From Candidatus Omnitrophota bacterium (lineage in GTDB: Bacteria > Omnitrophota > Gorgyraeia > Duberdicusellales > 4484-171), in assembly GCA_028711575.1 (NCBI GenBank), contig JAQTSA010000005.1, positions 1 to 24,000 of the forward strand: a stretch of 24,000 nt of DNA, given 5' to 3'. Under the pieces are notes generated by a model, which did no database searches, had not been told where the DNA came from, and was given only the letters and a program-made list of their open reading frames with translations. Each line of letters opens with the position of its first letter. The stretch's first letter is position 1. The position numbers and the translations under genes were made by a program. Of the stretch, positions 7,428-15,922 are shown piece after piece.

Positions 7428-8099
7428 ATGAAAATTTACAGTCGGATTGAGGAGTTCTTTGGCAAAAAACAGTTTCGCGATGAGAAATTAGTAAAATTAC
7501 AAGAGAGGTTTCAAGCCTTGAAAACTGTTTTTTATGGAGTTGAGTTTACAAATGAGCGGCGTGATTCTTGTGATTGTATCTTGGCAGGCAAAGATGAGTT
7601 GCTCGATTTTATTGTTGAAGATATCGAGCGGGGGGAAAACTTAATTTCTAAGGTGGAAGAAAAAGCGGCAATTGAAAAAGGGTTAGAGATATTGAATCGG
7701 GAAAAACTTCTTTTTGAAGAGTTAAGCGGCGAGGATTTAAAGGTTTTTCGTGATTATTCCTTTGTAACAGCTAAGCCGATTATTGTTTGGAGCCAGGAAG
7801 GTTTGGACCAAATTCTTCTTAAAATCTTTGAGAAAACTAAAACAGTTTTTTTCTATGCTGCCGGGAAAAAAGAAGTTCATGCCTGGATGGTTCCACTCGG
7901 CAGTGATGTTGTGACCGCGGCTTCAAAAATACATAGCGATTTGGCCCGCGGTTTTATCCGGGCCGAGGTCTATAACGCCTCAGATCTTGATAATTTTAAG
8001 AATTTATCTGAAGCTAAACAGCGGGGCCTTTTAAAGTTGGTGGATAAAAGTTATATCGTTAATGATGGGGATGTCTTGGACGTAAAGTTTAGTGTTTAA
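7428..8099 (+). CDS. YchF-like protein retaining only the helical and C-terminal TGS-like (DUF933) regions; no P-loop
   Basis: 223-aa ORF starting 18 nt after the EF-G2 stop. The C-terminus (FFYAAGKKEVHAWMVPLGSDVVTAASKIHSDLARGFIRAEV...VDKSYIVNDGDVLDVKFSV) aligns by eye to E. coli YchF ([39 protein letters not shown]...GKDYIVKDGDVMNFLFNV). No GxxxxGK[ST] is present anywhere in the ORF. Confidence 0.75.
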   Translation: MKIYSRIEEFFGKKQFRDEKLVKLQERFQALKTVFYGVEFTNERRDSCDCILAGKDELLDFIVEDIERGENLISKVEEKAAIEKGLEILNREKLLFEELSGEDLKVFRDYSFVTAKPIIVWSQEGLDQILLKIFEKTKTVFFYAAGKKEVHAWMVPLGSDVVTAASKIHSDLARGFIRAEVYNASDLDNFKNLSEAKQRGLLKLVDKSYIVNDGDVLDVKFSV

Positions 8100-8133
8100 T
8101 CAACGTAAATACAAAGAAAGTTGAGGTTTTTCA

Positions 8134-9651
8134 ATGTTGAAAGTGAGGAGAGCCCTTATCAGTGTCTGGGATAAAAAAGGTATTGGAGATTTCGCGAAAA
8201 GAATCTCTAAACTTAATATCGAGATTGTTTCTACCGGCAAAACCGCGAAGTTGTTCCGCCAAAATAATATTGCGGTTTCTGAGGTTTCATCTTTAACTGA
8301 ATTTCCTGAGATCCTTTCGGGAAGAGTTAAGACTCTTCACCCTAAAGTTTTTGGCGGTATTCTGGCTAACAAAAAGCATCCTTTACATATTGAAGAGATG
8401 CGCAGTCTTAATATTATTCCGATAGATATGGTTGTTGTTAATCTTTATCCTTTTGCCGCTAAATTAAAGGATAAACTAACGACAGATGAAATATTAGAGT
8501 ACATTGATATTGGAGGGCACAGCTTATTAAGAGCGGCGGCTAAAAATTATAAAAACGTTGTTTGTATCAGTTCACGCGAACAGTATAAGTCAGTGATTGA
8601 AGAACTTGAAAAAAATAAAGGGTTCATATCTCAAGAAACTTTGAGGGATTTAGCGGCAGCAGCTTTTTACTTAGCGAAAGAATATGATAATGACATCTAC
8701 GGTTACTTTAACCCTAGAAAAGTAGTCACTTGGGATTGGGAAAAGCTGGCTAATTTACGTTACGGTGAAAATCCTCATCAGAAAGCCGGCCTTTATCGTC
8801 TGTTACGTTCGCCGAGCGTAAAGTTTGAACAAATTCAGGGTAAAGAGCTGTCCTACAACAATTTTATGGATCTTGATACTGCTTTGTGTTGTGTTAAAGA
8901 GTTTTCAGACCCGGCAGCTGTTATTGTTAAACACAGCACGCCCTGTGGCGTTGGTACCGATAAAAAACTTGTTAACGCTTATAAAAAGGCTTATTCGGCT
9001 GATCCTTTGTCGAGTTTTGGCGGGATTGTAGGTTTTAACCGAAAAGTAGATAAGTTTACTGCCCAGGCGTTACTTAAAAGCGGGTTTAAAGAATGTGTTA
9101 TCGCTCCAGCCTATTCTAAAGAAGCTCTTAAATATTTTGCTGAAAAGAAAAACTTAAGAATCATTGAAATTGATTTTTCCAAAATTTCTCTTGGCTTTAA
9201 AGGTGTCCGGGCCGGGGTTTTTGGCTATTTAATTCAGGACAGCGATACTCAGGTTGTTGATAAGTCAAAGTTTAAAGTTGTTACTGAAAAAAAACCGACA
9301 CAATCTCAGATGAAAGATTTGGTTTTTGCCTGGAAAGTAGTTAAGCATGTTAAGTCTAATGCGATAGTTGCTGTAAAGAATGGCAATCTGCTGGGTATTG
9401 GTGGCGGTCAGCCTTCAAGAGTTGGCGCGGTGAAGATCGCCCTTGGTAAAAGCAGCGCTTTGATCAAAGGCGCGGTGTTAGCGTCTGATGCCTTTTTCCC
9501 AAAAGAGGATTCAATAAAACTCGCTTATCGGAAGGGGATAAGAGCGATTATTTGCCCCGGCGGATCTATAAAAGATCAGGAAGTTATTGATTGCTGTAAC
9601 AAATATGGTATCGCTATGATTTTTACTGGTATTCGTCACTTTCGTCATTAA
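8134..9651 (+). CDS. purH: Bifunctional AICAR transformylase / IMP cyclohydrolase
   Basis: 505-aa ORF. It has an MGS-like N-terminus (RALISVWDKKGIGDFAKRISKLNIEIVSTGKTAKLF, TLHPKVFGGIL), an AICARFT domain (LRYGENPHQKA, KHSTPCG) and the C-terminal HFRH. Confidence 0.93.
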   Translation: MLKVRRALISVWDKKGIGDFAKRISKLNIEIVSTGKTAKLFRQNNIAVSEVSSLTEFPEILSGRVKTLHPKVFGGILANKKHPLHIEEMRSLNIIPIDMVVVNLYPFAAKLKDKLTTDEILEYIDIGGHSLLRAAAKNYKNVVCISSREQYKSVIEELEKNKGFISQETLRDLAAAAFYLAKEYDNDIYGYFNPRKVVTWDWEKLANLRYGENPHQKAGLYRLLRSPSVKFEQIQGKELSYNNFMDLDTALCCVKEFSDPAAVIVKHSTPCGVGTDKKLVNAYKKAYSADPLSSFGGIVGFNRKVDKFTAQALLKSGFKECVIAPAYSKEALKYFAEKKNLRIIEIDFSKISLGFKGVRAGVFGYLIQDSDTQVVDKSKFKVVTEKKPTQSQMKDLVFAWKVVKHVKSNAIVAVKNGNLLGIGGGQPSRVGAVKIALGKSSALIKGAVLASDAFFPKEDSIKLAYRKGIRAIICPGGSIKDQEVIDCCNKYGIAMIFTGIRHFRH

Positions 9652-12648: not shown

Positions 12649-13212
12649 ATGAATAAGAAGATCGATAAGAAAAAGATTGAACAAGGCATTCGAATGGTTC
12701 TTGAGGCTGTCGGTGCCGATTTAGATATTAAAGATATCGCGAAAACTCCTCAGCGAGTTGCCCAGATGTATGAGGAAATTTTGGCGGGACAGTTTAAAAA
12801 TCCGGAAGATGAAATAAATGTTATTTTGGAAGAAGAACATGATGAAATTATTTTACTAAGAAATATTTCATTTTATTCTCTATGTGAGCATCATCTTGTT
12901 CCATTTTTTGGTAAAGCGCATGTTGCCTATATTCCGGATAAACGGATAACTGGTTTAAGCAAAATTGCCCGGGTAGTAGAAGTTTTGTCACGCCGTCTTC
13001 AGGTTCAAGAGCGGCTTACTACCAAAATAGCTGATGTTTTAATGAAAAAACTCAAACCTAAAGGGGTTTTTGTCGTTATTGAAGCTGAACATCTTTGTAT
13101 GTCAATGCGCGGTGTAAAAAAACCGGGAACGACAAATGTCACGTCGGTTGTTCGAGGTGTTTTTCGAACCAATTCGAAGACTCGCCAAGAAGCATTGAGC
13201 CTTATCAAATAG
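12649..13212 (+). CDS. folE: GTP cyclohydrolase I
   Basis: 187-aa ORF preceded by the SD GGAGG. It contains TPQRVAQMYEEILAG, the catalytic SLCEHHLVPF, and QVQERLT. Confidence 0.93.
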   Translation: MNKKIDKKKIEQGIRMVLEAVGADLDIKDIAKTPQRVAQMYEEILAGQFKNPEDEINVILEEEHDEIILLRNISFYSLCEHHLVPFFGKAHVAYIPDKRITGLSKIARVVEVLSRRLQVQERLTTKIADVLMKKLKPKGVFVVIEAEHLCMSMRGVKKPGTTNVTSVVRGVFRTNSKTRQEALSLIK

Positions 13213-13244
13213 ACTTTTGGGTAAGAGAAGAAGCTCATGGCTCA

Positions 13245-13388
13245 TTCGCGCCTTCGGTGCTGTTTGCAGATGATCACAGAAGCCGCGCCTTCGGCTCGGC
13301 AGCAGATGATCACAGATTCGCGCCTTCGGCGCTGTTCGCAGATGATCACAGAAGTCGCGCCTTCGGCTCGGCAGCAGATGATCGCAGA
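13245..13388. repeat. Four head-to-tail 36-bp GC-rich hairpin units in two alternating variants (72-bp higher-order period)
   Basis: Units lie at 13245-13280 (ttcgcgccttcggtgctgtttgcagatgatcacaga), 13281-13316 (agccgcgccttcggctcggcagcagatgatcacaga), 13317-13352 and 13353-13388. Each has a GC-rich stem around a CCTTCGG apex plus a conserved GCAGATGATCACAGA linker containing the palindrome TGATCA. There are no spacers between units. Confidence 0.9.
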
Positions 13389-13446
13389 TATATGGTATTT
13401 AGGAAATAGCCTTTTTGAGAAGAGAAGAGTCAAACGATTGTCAGAA

Positions 13447-13478
13447 AGTGATTGAGTGATTGAGTAATTGAGTGATTC
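13447..13478. repeat. 4 x 8-bp tandem repeat AGTGATTG
   Basis: The sequence reads agtgattg agtgattg agtaattg agtgattc directly. Confidence 0.85.
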
Positions 13479-13484
13479 AGCGAA

Positions 13485-13524
13485 ATAGAAATTTATAGAA
13501 ATTGATAGAGATTTATAGAAATGT
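13485..13524. repeat. 4 x 10-bp phased tandem repeat ATAGAAATTT
   Basis: The units are atagaaattt atagaaattg atagagattt atagaaatgt. The reverse complement of this motif (AAATTTCTAT-like) recurs in 10-bp phase at 13630-13669 and 13875-13914. Confidence 0.85.
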
Positions 13525-13592
13525 GTTGTTTTTAAAAAAGGAGCTAAATATTGCACAATGGAAATCCTATTTATTCCTAATCCAACTGAGAG

Positions 13593-13676
13593 AGTTTGCG
13601 AGTTTCAAACATTGGTTTCTTCAAACAATAAATTTCAACTAATTTCTACAAATTTCAATTTATTTCTACGACAATT
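13593..13676. repeat. Copy 1 of an ~85-90-bp dispersed direct repeat (contains a 4 x 10-bp AATTTC(A/T)A array at 13630-13669)
   Basis: It starts with agtttgcgagtt, followed by caaacattggtttcttcaaacaataaatttcaactaatttctacaaatttcaatttatttctacgacaatt. By hand alignment it matches 13830-13921 at about 60 of 71 positions, plus an identical 12-mer and one 8-9-bp indel. Confidence 0.8.
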
Positions 13677-13768
13677 GTTTGACGGTCGCCTGGGCTGAGC
13701 CAGTTTGACAGGCGTACTCCGCGTGTTTGACGCCAACGCAGTGAACGTTTGACGCGAGCGTAGCGAGC
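13677..13768. repeat. Four GTTTGAC-led units (26, 22, 22 and 22 bp) in a GC-rich block
   Basis: GTTTGAC occurs at 13677, 13703, 13725 and 13747. Each is followed by 15-19 nt of GC-rich, non-conserved sequence, for example gcgagcgtagcgagc. Confidence 0.75.
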
Positions 13769-13778
13769 TTTCTTGTTC

Positions 13779-13813
13779 GGGTATAGGGTTCAGGGTCTCG
13801 GGTTTAGGGTGAA
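13779..13813. repeat. 5 x 7-bp tandem repeat GGGTNNN
   Basis: The sequence reads gggtata gggttca gggtctc gggttta gggtgaa directly. Confidence 0.85.
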
Positions 13814-13829
13814 GAGTTTCAGAGTTACT

Positions 13830-13921
13830 AGTTTGCGAGTTCTGAGTTGACAAACATTGTTTTATCCAAACAACTAATTTCAATCCATTTCTATAAATTT
13901 CAATTTATTTCTAAGAGAATT
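13830..13921. repeat. Copy 2 of the ~85-90-bp dispersed direct repeat (10-bp phased array at 13875-13914)
   Basis: It starts with agtttgcgagtt, then the insertion ctgagttga, then caaacattgttttatccaaacaactaatttcaatccatttctataaatttcaatttatttctaagagaattt. It is in the same orientation as copy 1, 237 bp downstream. Confidence 0.8.
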
Positions 13922-13948: not shown

Positions 13949-15922
13949 TTAAATCACGGGGTCAATAAAGTCAAAGCTTGGTTCTATAACATTAACTTCT
14001 TCGTAAGTCTCAAGCGGTAAATCATAAAAGAACATTGACGGTTGAGTCACTATCAGTCCGTTTTTAAAAGTATATTTTGTCTCAGGATAGCTGATGTATA
14101 GGTGAACCTTTGCTCTGGTTGCCGCGACATAGAAAAGTCTTCTTTCTTCTTCCAGTTGGTCTTGGGAGTTGAGGGCTTTAGGGTGGGGAAACTCGTAATT
14201 GTTAAACCCGATTAAAAATACAGCTTCCCATTCTAAGCCTTTGGACTGATGTATTGTTGAAAGGACTAACACCTCTTCTCTTTCGCCCGGTGCGATTCTT
14301 GTTTCACCTTTAAATTCTTCGAAGGCATTAAATTCAAGGAGAAACTGTTTTATCCCGGAATAACTTCTTGCCATTTTAGAAAGTTCTTCTAAATCGAGAA
14401 TGCGTTCTTCGGGGTTATCAAAGGATAAATAGCAGTGCTCTTTGTAAAAGCTTAATATTTCATTCAAAGCTTCTTCAGCGGTTGTCATTTTCTTTATTGC
14501 CTCAAGAGACAGTCGGAAATTTCTAAATCCCTGTTTGGGTCGTTTTGGCAGAGAATTTTCGATTTCGCTGAAAGGCCTTTCATTAAATATCATTTGCCAT
14601 ATTTTATGAGCGAAGGTTCGTCCTAATCCTTTTTGAAGGCATAAAACTCGTTTGTAAGAGAGTTCGTCTTTAGGGTTAACGATTATTCTAAGATAGGCTA
14701 AGGCGTCCTTGATATGAGCCTGTTCAAAAAATCGTACGCCGCCGCGGACGATGTAAGGAATGCCCCGTTTCATAAGCTCGACTTCTAGCTCTAAGGATTG
14801 AAACCGCGAGCGAAAAAGAACCGCTATTTGATTTAGAGGAATATCGTCTTGGTAAAACTCAAGTATTTTTTGGCCGATAAATTGAGCTTGCTGGTAGACA
14901 TCCTTTGTTTTAACAATTCTCGGCTTTTCATTGTCTTCTTTTACTGCCCGCAGTGTTTTGGGAAATTGGTTTATGTTGTGTTTAATTATTTCGTTAGCCA
15001 AATCTAATATTTGAGGGCTTGATCGATAATTAAGTTCTAACTTAAATATTTTTGTTTCCGGAAAAACTTTGGGAAAATCAAGGATGTTATTAATTTGGGC
15101 CGATCGGAAAGAATATATAGATTGGGCATCATCGCCAACGGCTAATATGTTTTTATGTTTTGAGGCTAACAGGTTCAAAAGTTCGAATTGTAATTGATTG
15201 GTGTCTTGATATTCATCAACTAAAATGTATTTAAACTGGTCGGAATACTTATTCCGGACGAAATCGTTTTTCAATACTTTAAGCCAATTGTTAAGCAGAT
15301 CGGAAAAATCCATAATGTTGCTCTGAATTTTTTTATGATTGTATAAATTAAGAATTCTCTTTATTGGTTCAATGAATTCTTCTAATTTCGGGTAAGAGTT
15401 TAGGATGATCTCTTTAACTTCTTTTTGAGCGTTGACTGCTAAATTCCAGATTGTAGAAAGGATATCTTTTTTTGGGAAAAGGGTTCCTTTATCGGAGTAC
15501 CCGGCTTCGGACATACAATCGGCAATGTAGCCAAGCGAGTCTTCGCGATCAATTATTGTAAAGCTGGGCGTGTATCCCAGCAAATGGGCTTCTTTTCTAA
15601 GGATAACGTTTCCGATGTGATGAAATGTTCCCGCCCAGAGTTTGGATAAGTCTGATTTAAGGACAGTCTCAGCGCGATTGACCATTTCGATTGAAGCTTT
15701 GTTGGTAAAGGTTACAAGTAAAATGTTTTCCGGATTTATTCCTTGATCTAATAAATAGGCTAACCGGTATATTAATACCCGGGTTTTTCCTGATCCGGCT
15801 CCGGCTAAAACTAAACAGGCACCGTTGGTTGCGGTAGCTACTTTGAATTGCTGAGCGTTAAGATCTTTACTGTAATCAATCGTCGATTGAGATTTGAAAG
15901 GCTTTAATTGATAGTTTTCCAT
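13949..15922 (-). CDS. UvrD/PcrA/Rep-family ATP-dependent DNA helicase (superfamily 1)
   Basis: 657-aa ORF. It carries Walker A AGAGSGKTRVLIYRLAYLL, motif II VDEYQDTNQLQFELL, plus GDDAQSIYSFRSA, NYRS, TIHQSKGLEW and YVAATRAK. Confidence 0.9.
   Translation of the reverse strand: MENYQLKPFKSQSTIDYSKDLNAQQFKVATATNGACLVLAGAGSGKTRVLIYRLAYLLDQGINPENILLVTFTNKASIEMVNRAETVLKSDLSKLWAGTFHHIGNVILRKEAHLLGYTPSFTIIDREDSLGYIADCMSEAGYSDKGTLFPKKDILSTIWNLAVNAQKEVKEIILNSYPKLEEFIEPIKRILNLYNHKKIQSNIMDFSDLLNNWLKVLKNDFVRNKYSDQFKYILVDEYQDTNQLQFELLNLLASKHKNILAVGDDAQSIYSFRSAQINNILDFPKVFPETKIFKLELNYRSSPQILDLANEIIKHNINQFPKTLRAVKEDNEKPRIVKTKDVYQQAQFIGQKILEFYQDDIPLNQIAVLFRSRFQSLELEVELMKRGIPYIVRGGVRFFEQAHIKDALAYLRIIVNPKDELSYKRVLCLQKGLGRTFAHKIWQMIFNERPFSEIENSLPKRPKQGFRNFRLSLEAIKKMTTAEEALNEILSFYKEHCYLSFDNPEERILDLEELSKMARSYSGIKQFLLEFNAFEEFKGETRIAPGEREEVLVLSTIHQSKGLEWEAVFLIGFNNYEFPHPKALNSQDQLEEERRLFYVAATRAKVHLYISYPETKYTFKNGLIVTQPSMFFYDLPLETYEEVNVIEPSFDFIDPVI

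What the first reader, a model, noticed from the sequence alone, without database searches (positions are those of the whole stretch)
13245..13388. Four spacer-less 36-nt hairpin repeats: orphan type III antitoxin-like or REP-like array
There are four exact-length 36-bp units head to tail. They alternate between two variants, A at 13245 and 13317 and B at 13281 and 13353. Each has a GC-rich stem around a CCTTCGG apex: gcgcc-ttc-ggYgc in A, and gccgcgcc-ttc-ggctcggc with one mismatch in B. Each also has an invariant 15-nt linker, GCAGATGATCACAGA. The only stem difference between the two A copies is ggTgc versus ggCgc, which changes G.U to G-C and preserves pairing, as expected for an RNA hairpin. 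By hand count the units are 19/36 and 23/36 G+C, far above the flanking genes. The unit length and head-to-tail layout match the ToxI antitoxin RNA of the ToxIN type III toxin-antitoxin/abortive-infection system (5.5 tandem 36-nt repeats). However, no ToxN-like ORF follows the array. The alternative reading is a REP/BIME-like array of extragenic palindromes at the 3' ends of convergent genes, although here all units are in direct rather than alternating orientation.
Basis: partly seen in the sequence, partly recalled or inferred. Interest (0 to 1): 0.65.

Follow-up and report, generated by a model that had tools for sequence, protein, structure and literature searches.

The report
Gene-less repeat arm of nuclease cassette
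The four 36-base hairpin units are not an RNA antitoxin; they are one locally duplicated copy of a repeat scattered at about 47 sites in this Omnitrophota genome, most likely the leftover arm of a small selfish nuclease-gene cassette that has lost its gene.

Summary
In detail: 4 x 36 nt at 13245-13388, equal to a 72-nt unit (hairpin A, word, hairpin B, word) duplicated once. The ToxI reading fails. The 15-nt word GCAGATGATCACAGA occurs 82 times in 47 intergenic arrays on both strands of this roughly 2-Mb Omnitrophota MAG. No ToxN-family gene is present, and no gene family recurs next to the arrays. Arrays of the window's type start just after the stop codon of a co-oriented gene in 19 of 22 cases.

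The word also occurs in other Omnitrophota genera and other phyla. There it brackets small GxxExxY (PD-(D/E)XK) genes: two direct words upstream, the second supplying the ATG, and inverted words after the stop. A same-family genome holds an intact and an internally deleted cassette. Here no GxxExxY gene exists, but the best-kept copies retain an in-frame C-terminal remnant (IKRLIY).

Sister strains have two units instead of four at this site, and swapped hairpin modules elsewhere. The hairpins keep pairing through compensatory changes.

Verdict: a MITE-like, gene-less derivative of a word-bracketed cassette. That design is undescribed in the searchable literature but was noted many times by this scan on other DNA.

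The parts
12649..13212 (+). folE (GTP cyclohydrolase I), the host gene whose stop codon lies 7 nt before the repeat mosaic begins
   Evidence: ORF; PF01227 on the identical protein
13219..13244 (+). Leader modules shared with other copies: GGGTA-AGAGAAG followed by (A/G)GCTCAT x2 (13232-13245). The AGCTCAT word dialect also brackets a PF05635 gene elsewhere in this genome.
   Evidence: Same leader before hairpin A at C85, C6 and C79; AGCTCAT-type words flank C130:21260-21580
13245..13280 (+). Unit A1: hairpin A (GCGCC-TTC-GGTGC) plus word 1 (13266-13280)
13281..13316 (+). Unit B1: hairpin B1 (GCCGCGCC-TTC-GGCTCGGC, one central mismatch) plus word 2 (13302-13316)
13317..13352 (+). Unit A2: second copy of hairpin A (GCGCC-TTC-GGCGC) plus word 3 (13338-13352). 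With unit B2 it is the duplicated 72-nt block that is absent from a sister strain.
13353..13388 (+). Unit B2: hairpin B1 variant (GTCGCGCC...GGCTCGGC) plus word 4, GCAGATGATCGCAGA (13374-13388). This is the CGCAGA form that carries the start ATG (13378-13380) in intact cassettes of relatives.
13389..13455 (+). Tail 1 (TATATGGTATTTAGGAAATAGCC...), conserved after 24 arrays. Read from the word's ATG it gives MIADIWYLGNSLFEKRRVKRLSESD*, a candidate remnant of a GxxExxY C-terminus. This copy is not significant on its own.
13447..13913 (.). Rest of the mosaic gap: AGTGATTG x4 (13447-13477), ATAGAAATTT x4 (13485-13522), its complement x4 (13630-13669 and 13876-13913), TTTGAC+N16 x4 (13678-13768) and GGGTNNN heptads (13775-13810). 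Each is itself dispersed in the genome.
13949..15922 (-). UvrD/PcrA-type helicase, convergent with folE; it is not a partner of the array
   Evidence: PF00580/PF13361

Best explanation
The array is non-coding, selfish repeat DNA. It is the upstream 'word arm' of a decayed, gene-less derivative of a GxxExxY (PD-(D/E)XK nuclease-fold) cassette, and it has been locally duplicated.

**Intact cassettes (shown in other Omnitrophota).** They sit just after the stop codon of a co-oriented host gene. They consist of word CAGATGATCACAGA, a spacer, word CAGATGATCGCAGA (whose ATG starts the nuclease ORF), the ORF of about 125 codons, and then the same words inverted.

**This lineage.**
- Inferred from a shared junction: an internally deleted copy spread to about 40 intergenic sites as a MITE-like element.
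- Shown: it carries short G+C-rich hairpins between the words.
- Shown: no GxxExxY gene is left in the assembly.

**The 15-nt words as homology joints.** Slippage or unequal exchange between them (inferred) adds, removes and swaps hairpin-plus-word units. That explains the 72-nt duplication here, the two-unit allele in a sister strain, and the swapped hairpin types at orthologous sites (all three shown).

**The hairpins.** They are kept by selection for pairing (compensatory changes shown), either in single-stranded DNA during copying or in RNA.

**Likely effect.** The element lies in the sense strand directly behind folE, so it is most likely transcribed as part of the folE 3' end. Any effect on the host, such as protecting the 3' end against exonucleases, would be incidental. 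This step is inferred and untested.

**Confidence by layer.** About 0.95 that it is a dispersed intergenic repeat and not a toxin-antitoxin RNA. About 0.6 that it descends from a GxxExxY cassette as described.
For: **Dispersed family.**
- 82 words in 47 arrays on both strands, 0 in the reversed control.
- All arrays are intergenic.
- 109 further matches to other modules of the gap.

**Placement.**
- 19 of 22 class-1 arrays have a co-oriented gene upstream, and 13 of these lie within 100 nt of its stop.
- Intact cassettes in L046, L059 and G015 start 0-20 nt after a co-oriented host gene.

**Same words and same order in intact cassettes.**
- L046 (JAZDPX010000029) and L059 (JAQUQN010000131) carry TIGR04256/PF13366 ORFs, E = 6e-32 and 4e-32. 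Each is preceded by CAGATGATCACAGA...CAGATGATCGCAGA and followed by TCTGTGATCATCTG.
- G015, in the same GTDB family, has an intact cassette at C8:97100-97620 and an internally deleted one at C8:92000-92250.
- G022 has gene-less [w w][w' w'] units.

**Bracket orientation here.** There are 6 facing array pairs and 0 back-to-back pairs within 700 nt.

**Remnant.**
- From the word's ATG, 13 of 24 class-1 copies read MI(A/T)D(I/M)(W/C)YLGNS....
- C172:13413 reads ...RIKRLIYDRI*. This matches the C-terminal IKRLIYT of intact proteins at the right position: BLASTP E = 0.01, and 16-47 of 2000 shuffles reach the score.
- A 28/33-nt match to the L046 gene's 3' end lies at C172:6740.

**Turnover.**
- ENA contig L162, with identical FolE, has 2 units at this site.
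- L188 has an extra unit compared with C152:3898.
- L178 has hairpin B1 replaced by B2 at the same site.
- L059 has its two-word arm duplicated with a 77-nt period.

**Hairpins.** 95% of cells are paired against 86% in shuffles (0/500) and 33-60% in slid controls, with two stem positions changed on both sides. The B1 hairpin is weaker.

**Co-occurrence.** 6 of 9 word-rich relatives have GxxExxY genes, against 6 of 32 word-poor ones.
Against: - No GxxExxY gene or fragment is detectable in this assembly, even at E <= 10, nor by tblastn in sister-strain contigs. The link to the cassette therefore rests on relatives.
- The genome is only 88% complete and breaks at repeats.
- The window's own tail peptide is not significantly similar to GxxExxY proteins (722-1557 of 2000 shuffles reach its score).
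- Tail 1 DNA shows no similarity to the gene's 5' end.
- Short peptides gave no profile hit.
- The window array has no inverted partner word, even at 5 mismatches.
- Most GxxExxY genes in relatives use other word dialects.
- Two word-rich genomes, this one and G009, have no such gene.
- How the cassette or its gene-less form moves is unknown.
Confidence: 0.6

Rival explanations
1. A host-serving 3'-UTR RNA element. The G+C-rich hairpins are transcribed behind folE and many other genes, where they stabilise the mRNA 3' end or help termination, as REP hairpins do in E. coli. The words are only linkers.
For: - Sense orientation directly behind stop codons in 19 of 22 class-1 arrays.
- Compensatory and wobble-compatible stem changes.
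- G.T outnumbers A.C in stems read in word orientation, 20 against 8.
- Arrays also follow tRNA genes on C26.
Against: - The same placement is shown by intact selfish cassettes in relatives, so it needs no host function.
- No U-tract terminator was found.
- The whole array folds no better than shuffles.
- Unit number and hairpin type vary between strains at the same site.
- About a third of the arrays lie antisense or upstream of genes.
- The G.T excess is dominated by one propagated variant.
Confidence: 0.15
2. A REP/BIME-type element copied by a REP-associated Y1 tyrosine transposase (RAYT). The hairpin plus a conserved flank would be the transposase's substrate.
For: - Dispersed intergenic hairpins with a conserved flank.
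- The genome has six Y1_Tnp matches. One is a 315-aa Y1_Tnp plus Bac_DnaA_C fusion. For that subclass no partner repeat is known (PMC6006769).
Against: - No Y1 gene has a word within 2.5 kb.
- Y1 genes are present in 31 of 41 relatives, with or without the repeat.
- The closest orthologues of the fusion protein sit in genomes with and without the word, and the most word-rich genome has none.
- Units are direct, not alternating.
- The hairpin sequence varies while the non-palindromic word is conserved, the opposite of REPs.
Confidence: 0.07
3. An array of binding sites for a DNA-binding protein, such as a nucleoid, regulatory or partition factor. It would recognise the CRCAGAT half-sites spaced one helical turn apart, independent of any mobile element.
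For: - The word is conserved exactly across genera and phyla while its surroundings change.
- It consists of two CRCAGAT half-sites 10 nt apart.
- It occurs in clusters.
Against: - The distribution among relatives is patchy: about 9 of 41 genomes are enriched. A conserved host factor would not give that.
- Each genome's GxxExxY genes use a different word dialect.
- Positions are not conserved between strains.

This rival overlaps the best explanation if the binder is the cassette's own nuclease.
Confidence: 0.1
4. A ToxI-like type III antitoxin RNA array whose toxin gene has been lost or lies elsewhere.
For: A 36-nt unit in a head-to-tail layout with hairpin potential.
Against: - No PF13958 (ToxN/AbiQ) match in the genome at E <= 1.
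- 47 arrays, mostly of 1-2 units, with 33- or 36-nt spacing.
- No recurrent neighbouring gene.
- Downstream ORFs are repeat-generated and carry no domain.
- No Rfam match even at E <= 1.
- CptN and TenpN families were not searched specifically.
Confidence: 0.01
5. A protein-coding 12-residue repeat: the 33- and 36-nt periods are multiples of three and all frames are open.
For: Open frames of 72-104 codons cross the array on both strands.
Against: - The array lies after the folE stop codon.
- Copies occur on both strands in intergenic DNA.
- The tails differ by frame-breaking indels.
- No Pfam match.
- One 34-nt spacing exists.
Confidence: 0.01

Closest known systems
GxxExxY (TIGR04256 / PF13366 PDDEXK_3) genes bracketed by inverted 'word' arms. 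I found no description in the searchable literature, but this scan has noted the design on other DNA.
   Same: - Identical word dialect and word order (ACAGA-word, then GCAGA-word with ATG).
- Same position behind a co-oriented host stop codon.
- Facing array pairs elsewhere in this genome.
- A C-terminal remnant in the best-kept copies.
   Different: - No nuclease gene here.
- The window copy has only the upstream arm.
- G+C-rich hairpins lie between the words. They were seen only in this species-level lineage.
- The arm is tandemly amplified.
MITEs / REPINs (non-autonomous derivatives of mobile elements; REP doublets with RAYT)
   Same: - Short and gene-less, at tens of intergenic copies.
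- Hairpin-forming.
- Descended from a gene-bearing parent seen in relatives.
- The shared internal-deletion junction argues that an already deleted copy spread.
   Different: - No transposase of a known family is tied to it.
- No target-site duplication was examined.
- The conserved part is a tandem direct word, not a palindrome.
- RAYT association was tested and not found.
Modular intergenic mosaics: Neisseria NIMEs (variable units flanked by 20-bp dRS3), E. coli BIMEs and pneumococcal BOX elements (A-Bn-C). Comparison from my own knowledge.
   Same: - A short conserved repeat alternates with exchangeable modules.
- The number of internal units varies between loci and strains.
- They sit at gene 3' ends.
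   Different: - Unrelated sequences.
- The units here are direct.
- The word has a demonstrable tie to a small ORF family in relatives.
ToxI antitoxin RNA of ToxIN (type III toxin-antitoxin)
   Same: A 36-nt unit in head-to-tail repeats.
   Different: - No toxin gene adjacent or in the genome.
- Many loci rather than one.
- Two alternating unit types and variable spacing.
- No sequence or Rfam similarity.
ORF-bearing intervening sequences of 23S rRNA (PF05635 '23S_rRNA_IVP' four-helix-bundle proteins)
   Same: A small ORF enclosed by inverted repeats and inserted in transcribed DNA. In this genome the two PF05635 genes are bracketed by AGCTCAT-type words, the same 7-mer that precedes the window array.
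   Different: - Not in rRNA here.
- A different protein family.
- The window element has no ORF.

Membership tests
Type III toxin-antitoxin (ToxIN-like) | Repeat array lies immediately upstream of, and co-oriented with, a ToxN/AbiQ/CptN/TenpN endoribonuclease gene | tested here: not met
   The only downstream ORFs of at least 40 aa are repeat-generated and have no domain. The next real gene is a convergent helicase 561 nt away.
Type III toxin-antitoxin (ToxIN-like) | A cognate toxin gene exists in the genome | tested here: not met
   PF13958 ToxN_toxin: 0 matches at E <= 1 in an 88%-complete assembly. CptN and TenpN were not searched by name. No gene family recurs beside the 47 arrays.
Type III toxin-antitoxin (ToxIN-like) | One dedicated locus, with identical units cut into monomers by the toxin | tested here: not met
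   47 arrays of 1-4 units, three hairpin types, and 33- or 36-nt spacing. RNA processing is not testable.
REP/BIME with RAYT | A Y1 (RAYT) gene flanked by its own REPs, present where the repeat is present | tested here: not met
   Six Y1_Tnp matches, none with a word within 2.5 kb. Y1 genes and orthologues of the Y1-DnaA_C protein do not track word-bearing genomes.
REP/BIME with RAYT | The conserved unit is an imperfect palindrome; BIME units alternate in orientation | tested here: not met
   The conserved part is a non-palindromic 15-mer. The hairpins between the words vary. All units in an array are direct.
REP/BIME with RAYT | Dispersed, extragenic, tens to hundreds of copies | tested here: met
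   82 words in 47 arrays, all intergenic.
MITE-like non-autonomous element | A related gene-bearing (autonomous) element exists | tested here: inconclusive
   Intact cassettes with the same words exist in L046, L059 and G015. None exists in this genome.
MITE-like non-autonomous element | Terminal inverted repeats | tested here: inconclusive
   Six facing array pairs elsewhere in the genome. The window copy has no inverted partner.
MITE-like non-autonomous element | Target-site duplication; empty versus filled sites | not tested
   No empty allele of this site was found. Sister-strain contigs are filled or break in the repeat.
GxxExxY word-bracketed cassette | Direct words upstream, with the second word supplying the start codon | tested here: met
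   The last word, GCAGATGATCGCAGA (13374-13388), equals the ATG-bearing word of L046, L059 and G015.
GxxExxY word-bracketed cassette | A GxxExxY (TIGR04256) ORF between the arms | tested here: not met
   None in the window or the genome. Only a candidate C-terminal remnant, significant in C172:13413 and C89 but not in the window copy.
GxxExxY word-bracketed cassette | Inverted words after the ORF | tested here: not met
   There is no reverse word in the window gap at up to 5 mismatches. Inverted partners are present at six other loci.
GxxExxY word-bracketed cassette | Sits just behind the stop codon of a co-oriented host gene | tested here: met
   The mosaic begins 7 nt after the folE stop. 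19 of 22 class-1 arrays are placed the same way, as are the intact cassettes.

The most novel reading that the evidence does not exclude
The hairpin-plus-word unit may be a still-active, self-standing repeat system. In this lineage it would have outlived its GxxExxY nuclease gene and kept changing (unit gain and loss, hairpin swapping, spread of an already deleted copy). It would be driven either in trans by another small cassette protein, such as the PF05635 genes with their own word brackets, or by host replication and recombination acting on the words. If so, the 15-nt word is the true mobility or recognition signal of a widespread, undescribed class of cassettes. This genome would then offer a natural gene-less test case.
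Probability: 0.25. Interest if true: 0.7.

Novelty: new variant of a known kind. Interest (0 to 1): 0.45.

Why it matters
**False lead removed.** A 36-nt head-to-tail repeat is not enough to call a type III antitoxin.

**Decay series for the GxxExxY family.** The finding adds a well-documented stage to a little-known phenomenon. GxxExxY genes form a large, uncharacterised family of small PD-(D/E)XK nuclease genes. Across several phyla they are bracketed by short tandem words, and I found no paper that describes this. The data here give a decay series within one bacterial family:
1. an intact cassette;
2. an internally deleted gene;
3. a gene-less word hairpin;
4. this genome's amplified, hairpin-bearing orphan arm.

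**A testable DNA or RNA target.** Strain-level evidence shows that the words act as joints for gaining, losing and swapping units. That gives the family a concrete candidate DNA or RNA target to test.

**A practical point.** These elements break short-read assemblies of Omnitrophota. They also generate spurious ORFs that could be annotated as genes.

Tried and rejected
- **Rfam.** No family matched, at gathering thresholds over the whole window or at E <= 1 over the gap.
- **Whole-array folding.** No better than shuffles on either strand. The sigma-70 and terminator scan found nothing above background.
- **RAYT idea.** The Y1_Tnp plus Bac_DnaA_C protein looked attractive because the word resembles a DnaA box with one base missing. 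I rejected it for three reasons: there is no physical linkage, its orthologues do not track the word, and Y1 genes are near-ubiquitous in the clade.
- **Tail 1 as the 5' end of a GxxExxY gene.** No DNA similarity.
- **Profile search with the 22-25-aa remnant peptides.** Too short, no hits.
- **Hammerhead or C/D-box (k-turn) likeness of CAGAUGAUC...CUGA.** Considered from memory and dropped: the core motifs do not fit and Rfam is silent.
- **Fur-box or DnaA-box likeness of the word.** Not pursued; no test was available.
- **Literature search for the word itself.** Only chance primer hits.
- **Viral contigs.** No word pairs.
- **First metagenome scan, for the folE junction.** No match.
- **Helicase-side look-up.** One contig that ends 64 nt past the stop.
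- **The look-up of sequencing runs.** Closed, so no read-level or RNA evidence.

Full report
**1. The observation**

The window holds four head-to-tail 36-nt units at 13245-13388. Tandem Repeats Finder sees them best as a 72-nt unit repeated twice at 94% identity. Each 72-nt unit is hairpin A (GCGCC-TTC-GGYGC), the word GCAGATGATCACAGA, hairpin B (GCCGCGCC-TTC-GGCTCGGC) and the word again.

The two 72-nt copies differ at four positions. Two of these lie in stems and keep pairing through wobble. One is the A>G change in the last word. The array is 60% G+C in a 38% G+C window.

It lies in a 736-bp ORF-free gap between convergent folE (12649-13212, +) and a UvrD-type helicase (13949-15922, -).

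**2. The array is not a one-off**

- The 15-mer, allowing up to 2 mismatches, occurs 82 times in the window's own assembly (1.99 Mb, 198 contigs, 88% complete). It splits 39 forward and 43 reverse, with none in the reversed-pattern control.
- The copies form 47 arrays: 18 of one word, 25 of two, 2 of three and 2 of four. Spacing is 33 or 36 nt. The window's array is one of the two largest.
- The other modules of the gap are dispersed too, with 109 matches.
- With a simple ORF map, all arrays are intergenic. The three apparent overlaps are ORFs created by the repeats themselves.

**3. Grammar of the family**

Hairpin modules alternate with the word. There are three hairpin types:
- A: TTCGCGCCTTCGGCGCTGTTC
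- B1: AGCCGCGCCTTCGGCTYGGCA
- B2/B3/B4: GTCCCGCTACCGCGGGAA, CTTCGGCTAACGCCGAAA, ATTCCGCTATCGCGGAAA

Arrays end in one of two conserved tails. Class 1, the window's class, has TATATGGTATTTAGGAAATAGCC.... Class 2 has TTATACTTTTTCTTTGGTATAA... after a word ending in CACTGA.

The hairpins keep pairing through compensatory changes. For the 18-nt type, 95% of cells pair, against 86% in column shuffles (0 of 500 reach it) and 33-60% in slid controls, and two stem positions change on both sides. B1 is weaker, at 85% paired with a central mismatch. G.T outnumbers A.C in word orientation by 20 to 8, but one propagated variant dominates that count.

As a whole, the four-unit array folds no better than shuffles on either strand. 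No canonical terminator or promoter signal stands out. No Rfam family matches even at E <= 1. The repeat-spanning ORFs have no Pfam domain.

**4. The ToxI reading fails**

- No ToxN/AbiQ-family match exists in the genome.
- No toxin-sized ORF follows the array.
- Clustering the 94 ORFs that flank arrays gives only repeat-generated pseudo-ORFs, a PEP-CTERM paralogue cluster on one contig, and ordinary housekeeping families.

**5. The REP/RAYT reading also fails on its defining link**

- The genome has six Y1_Tnp matches. None has a word within 2.5 kb.
- One is a Y1_Tnp plus Bac_DnaA_C fusion. This is subclass 2.1 of Quentin et al. 2018, for which no partner repeat is known (PMC6006769).
- Y1 genes occur in 31 of 41 relatives regardless of the repeat.
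- The closest orthologues of the fusion protein lie in genomes with and without the word, and the most word-rich genome has none.

**6. Placement**

In 19 of 22 class-1 arrays the upstream neighbour is a co-oriented gene, and 13 of those lie within 100 nt of its stop codon. The window's mosaic begins 7 nt after the folE stop. Class-2 arrays are mixed in orientation. Where two arrays lie within 700 nt of each other, six pairs face each other and none are back to back. That is bracket geometry.

**7. The word outside this genome**

- Among 40 relatives, all Candidatus Omnitrophota going by the titles, the generalised word RCAGATNNNNRCAGA is strongly enriched in about nine genomes. These lie in different genera and two families. 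In the rest it is at background.
- In those genomes the words lie 22-27 nt apart, as two direct copies followed by two or three inverted ones, without G+C hairpins.
- A scan of one genome per species found word pairs mostly in Omnitrophota, about 50 of the 80 loci listed. Clear arrays also occur in Planctomycetia, Verrucomicrobiales, Endomicrobiales, Thermodesulfovibrionia and Bacteroidota.
- None were found in viral contigs.

**8. The link to GxxExxY genes**

Clustering all ORFs in those loci showed a recurring ORF of about 130 aa beside the arrays. It belongs to GxxExxY, TIGR04256 / PF13366, a PD-(D/E)XK fold.

In two Omnitrophota MAGs (L046, L059) the gene is bracketed by exactly the window's words. 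Upstream lie CAGATGATCACAGA, a spacer, and CAGATGATCGCAGA. The ATG in the second word is the only available start, 8 codons before the profile begins. The inverted words follow the stop codon. The cassette starts 13-20 nt after a co-oriented host gene's stop. In L059 the two-word arm is tandemly duplicated with a 77-nt period.

G015, in the same GTDB family as the window's genome, has both an intact cassette of this kind and a copy with the middle of the gene deleted. G022 shows the gene-less [w w][w' w'] form.

In nine further relatives every GxxExxY gene examined has tandem 7-10-nt words upstream and their complement downstream, in genome-specific dialects. At the strict word pattern, however, most do not match the window's dialect.

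Six of nine word-rich relatives have GxxExxY genes, against six of 32 word-poor ones.

**9. What remains in this genome**

No GxxExxY gene or fragment is detectable here or in sister-strain contigs.

Read from the ATG in the last word, 13 of 24 class-1 copies give MI(A/T)D(I/M)(W/C)YLGNS.... The best-kept copy, C172:13413, gives MITDICYLGNSLDRERIKRLIYDRI* and is followed about 100 nt later by an inverted array. Its IKRLIY matches the C-terminal IKRLIYT of the intact proteins at the correct position: BLASTP E = 0.01, and 16-47 of 2000 shuffles reach the score. A 28/33-nt match to the L046 gene's 3' end lies at C172:6740.

The window's own peptide, MIADIWYLGNSLFEKRRVKRLSESD*, aligns to the same place but is not significant alone. 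Its tie is DNA homology of tail 1 to those copies.

The same junction (word ATG, a few codons, then the C-terminal remnant) recurs at many loci. I therefore infer that an already deleted copy spread.

**10. Turnover**

- A contig from another sample with an identical FolE protein has only two units at this site (A1, word, B1, last word) and a different module after the tail. Three other assemblies break inside the repeat.
- Metagenome contigs of the same or a sister species show an extra A unit at the orthologue of C152:3898. In another sample the same site has hairpin B1 replaced by B2.
- The G+C-hairpin grammar turned up only in this lineage.

**11. Conclusion**

What is shown:
- a dispersed, modular, intergenic repeat;
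- placement behind stop codons;
- hairpin covariation;
- strain-level variation in unit number and hairpin module;
- identity of the words with those bracketing GxxExxY genes in relatives;
- absence of ToxN and of any RAYT linkage.

What is inferred:
- descent from a GxxExxY cassette by internal deletion;
- spread as a non-autonomous element;
- expansion by slippage or exchange between words;
- transcription as a folE 3' passenger.

What remains unknown:
- how such cassettes move;
- what the nuclease or the words do;
- whether the hairpins matter in DNA or in RNA.

The scan's earlier notes describe the same gene-plus-word design on other DNA. I reached it independently, and those notes agree. 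The held literature has no description of it.

Noticed in passing
window 13447-13913: The rest of the folE-helicase gap is a chain of other short tandem 'words': AGTGATTG x4, ATAGAAATTT x4 and its complement twice, TTTGAC+N16 x4, and GGGTNNN heptads. Each is itself dispersed in the genome. TTTGAC/GTCAAAC units also alternate with small G+C hairpins, the same grammar as the 15-mer arrays.
   Followed up: partly
G000 C130:21260-21580 and C124:224-550 (L176, L177): The genome's two PF05635 (23S_rRNA_IVP, four-helix-bundle) genes are each bracketed by inverted short words (AGCTCAT/ACGAGCT; TTCGTAGCTCGT/ACGAGCTACGAA). AGCTCAT is the 7-mer that sits in tandem just before the window's array.
   Followed up: partly
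G000 C162:14722-15666 (L017/L153): A 315-aa Y1_Tnp plus Bac_DnaA_C fusion protein (TIRYT-like subclass 2.1). Paralogues and orthologues of about 320 aa are common across this Omnitrophota clade. No partner repeat was found near it.
   Followed up: partly
G000 C177:3900-12300: A tandem cluster of PEP-CTERM-tailed secreted paralogues. Nearly every intergenic spacer carries word arrays, nine arrays in 8 kb.
   Followed up: no
G000 C136:7500-9300: A 386-aa P-loop ATPase-like ORF (7882-9042) is flanked on both sides by near-identical class-2 arrays in direct orientation. Its domain identity was not checked.
   Followed up: no
L190 (G015 C8:92000-92250): An internally deleted GxxExxY cassette: the first ~30 nt of the gene are joined to its last ~100 nt, still between its words. 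It lies 5 kb from an intact paralogue (L189).
   Followed up: yes
L042 (Ferruginibacter MAG), L079 (Prevotella MAG), L040 (Verrucomicrobiales MAG), L091 (Bacteroides hominis chromosome): Tandem or inverted arrays of CAGAT(T/G)ATC(A/G)CAGA in distant phyla. Examples are 39-nt repeats x6 or more in Ferruginibacter, a 28-nt perfect inverted repeat in B. hominis, and three words 6 nt apart in Verrucomicrobiales.
   Followed up: no
G000 C26:10270 and 11752: Word-hairpin units lie directly downstream of tRNA genes, so the 'behind a transcribed gene' rule is not limited to protein genes.
   Followed up: no
L159-L161, L163 (Logan contigs): Short-read assemblies of the same species end inside or just before the repeat mosaic on both sides of this gap. 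These elements are a likely cause of the assembly's 198 contigs.
   Followed up: partly
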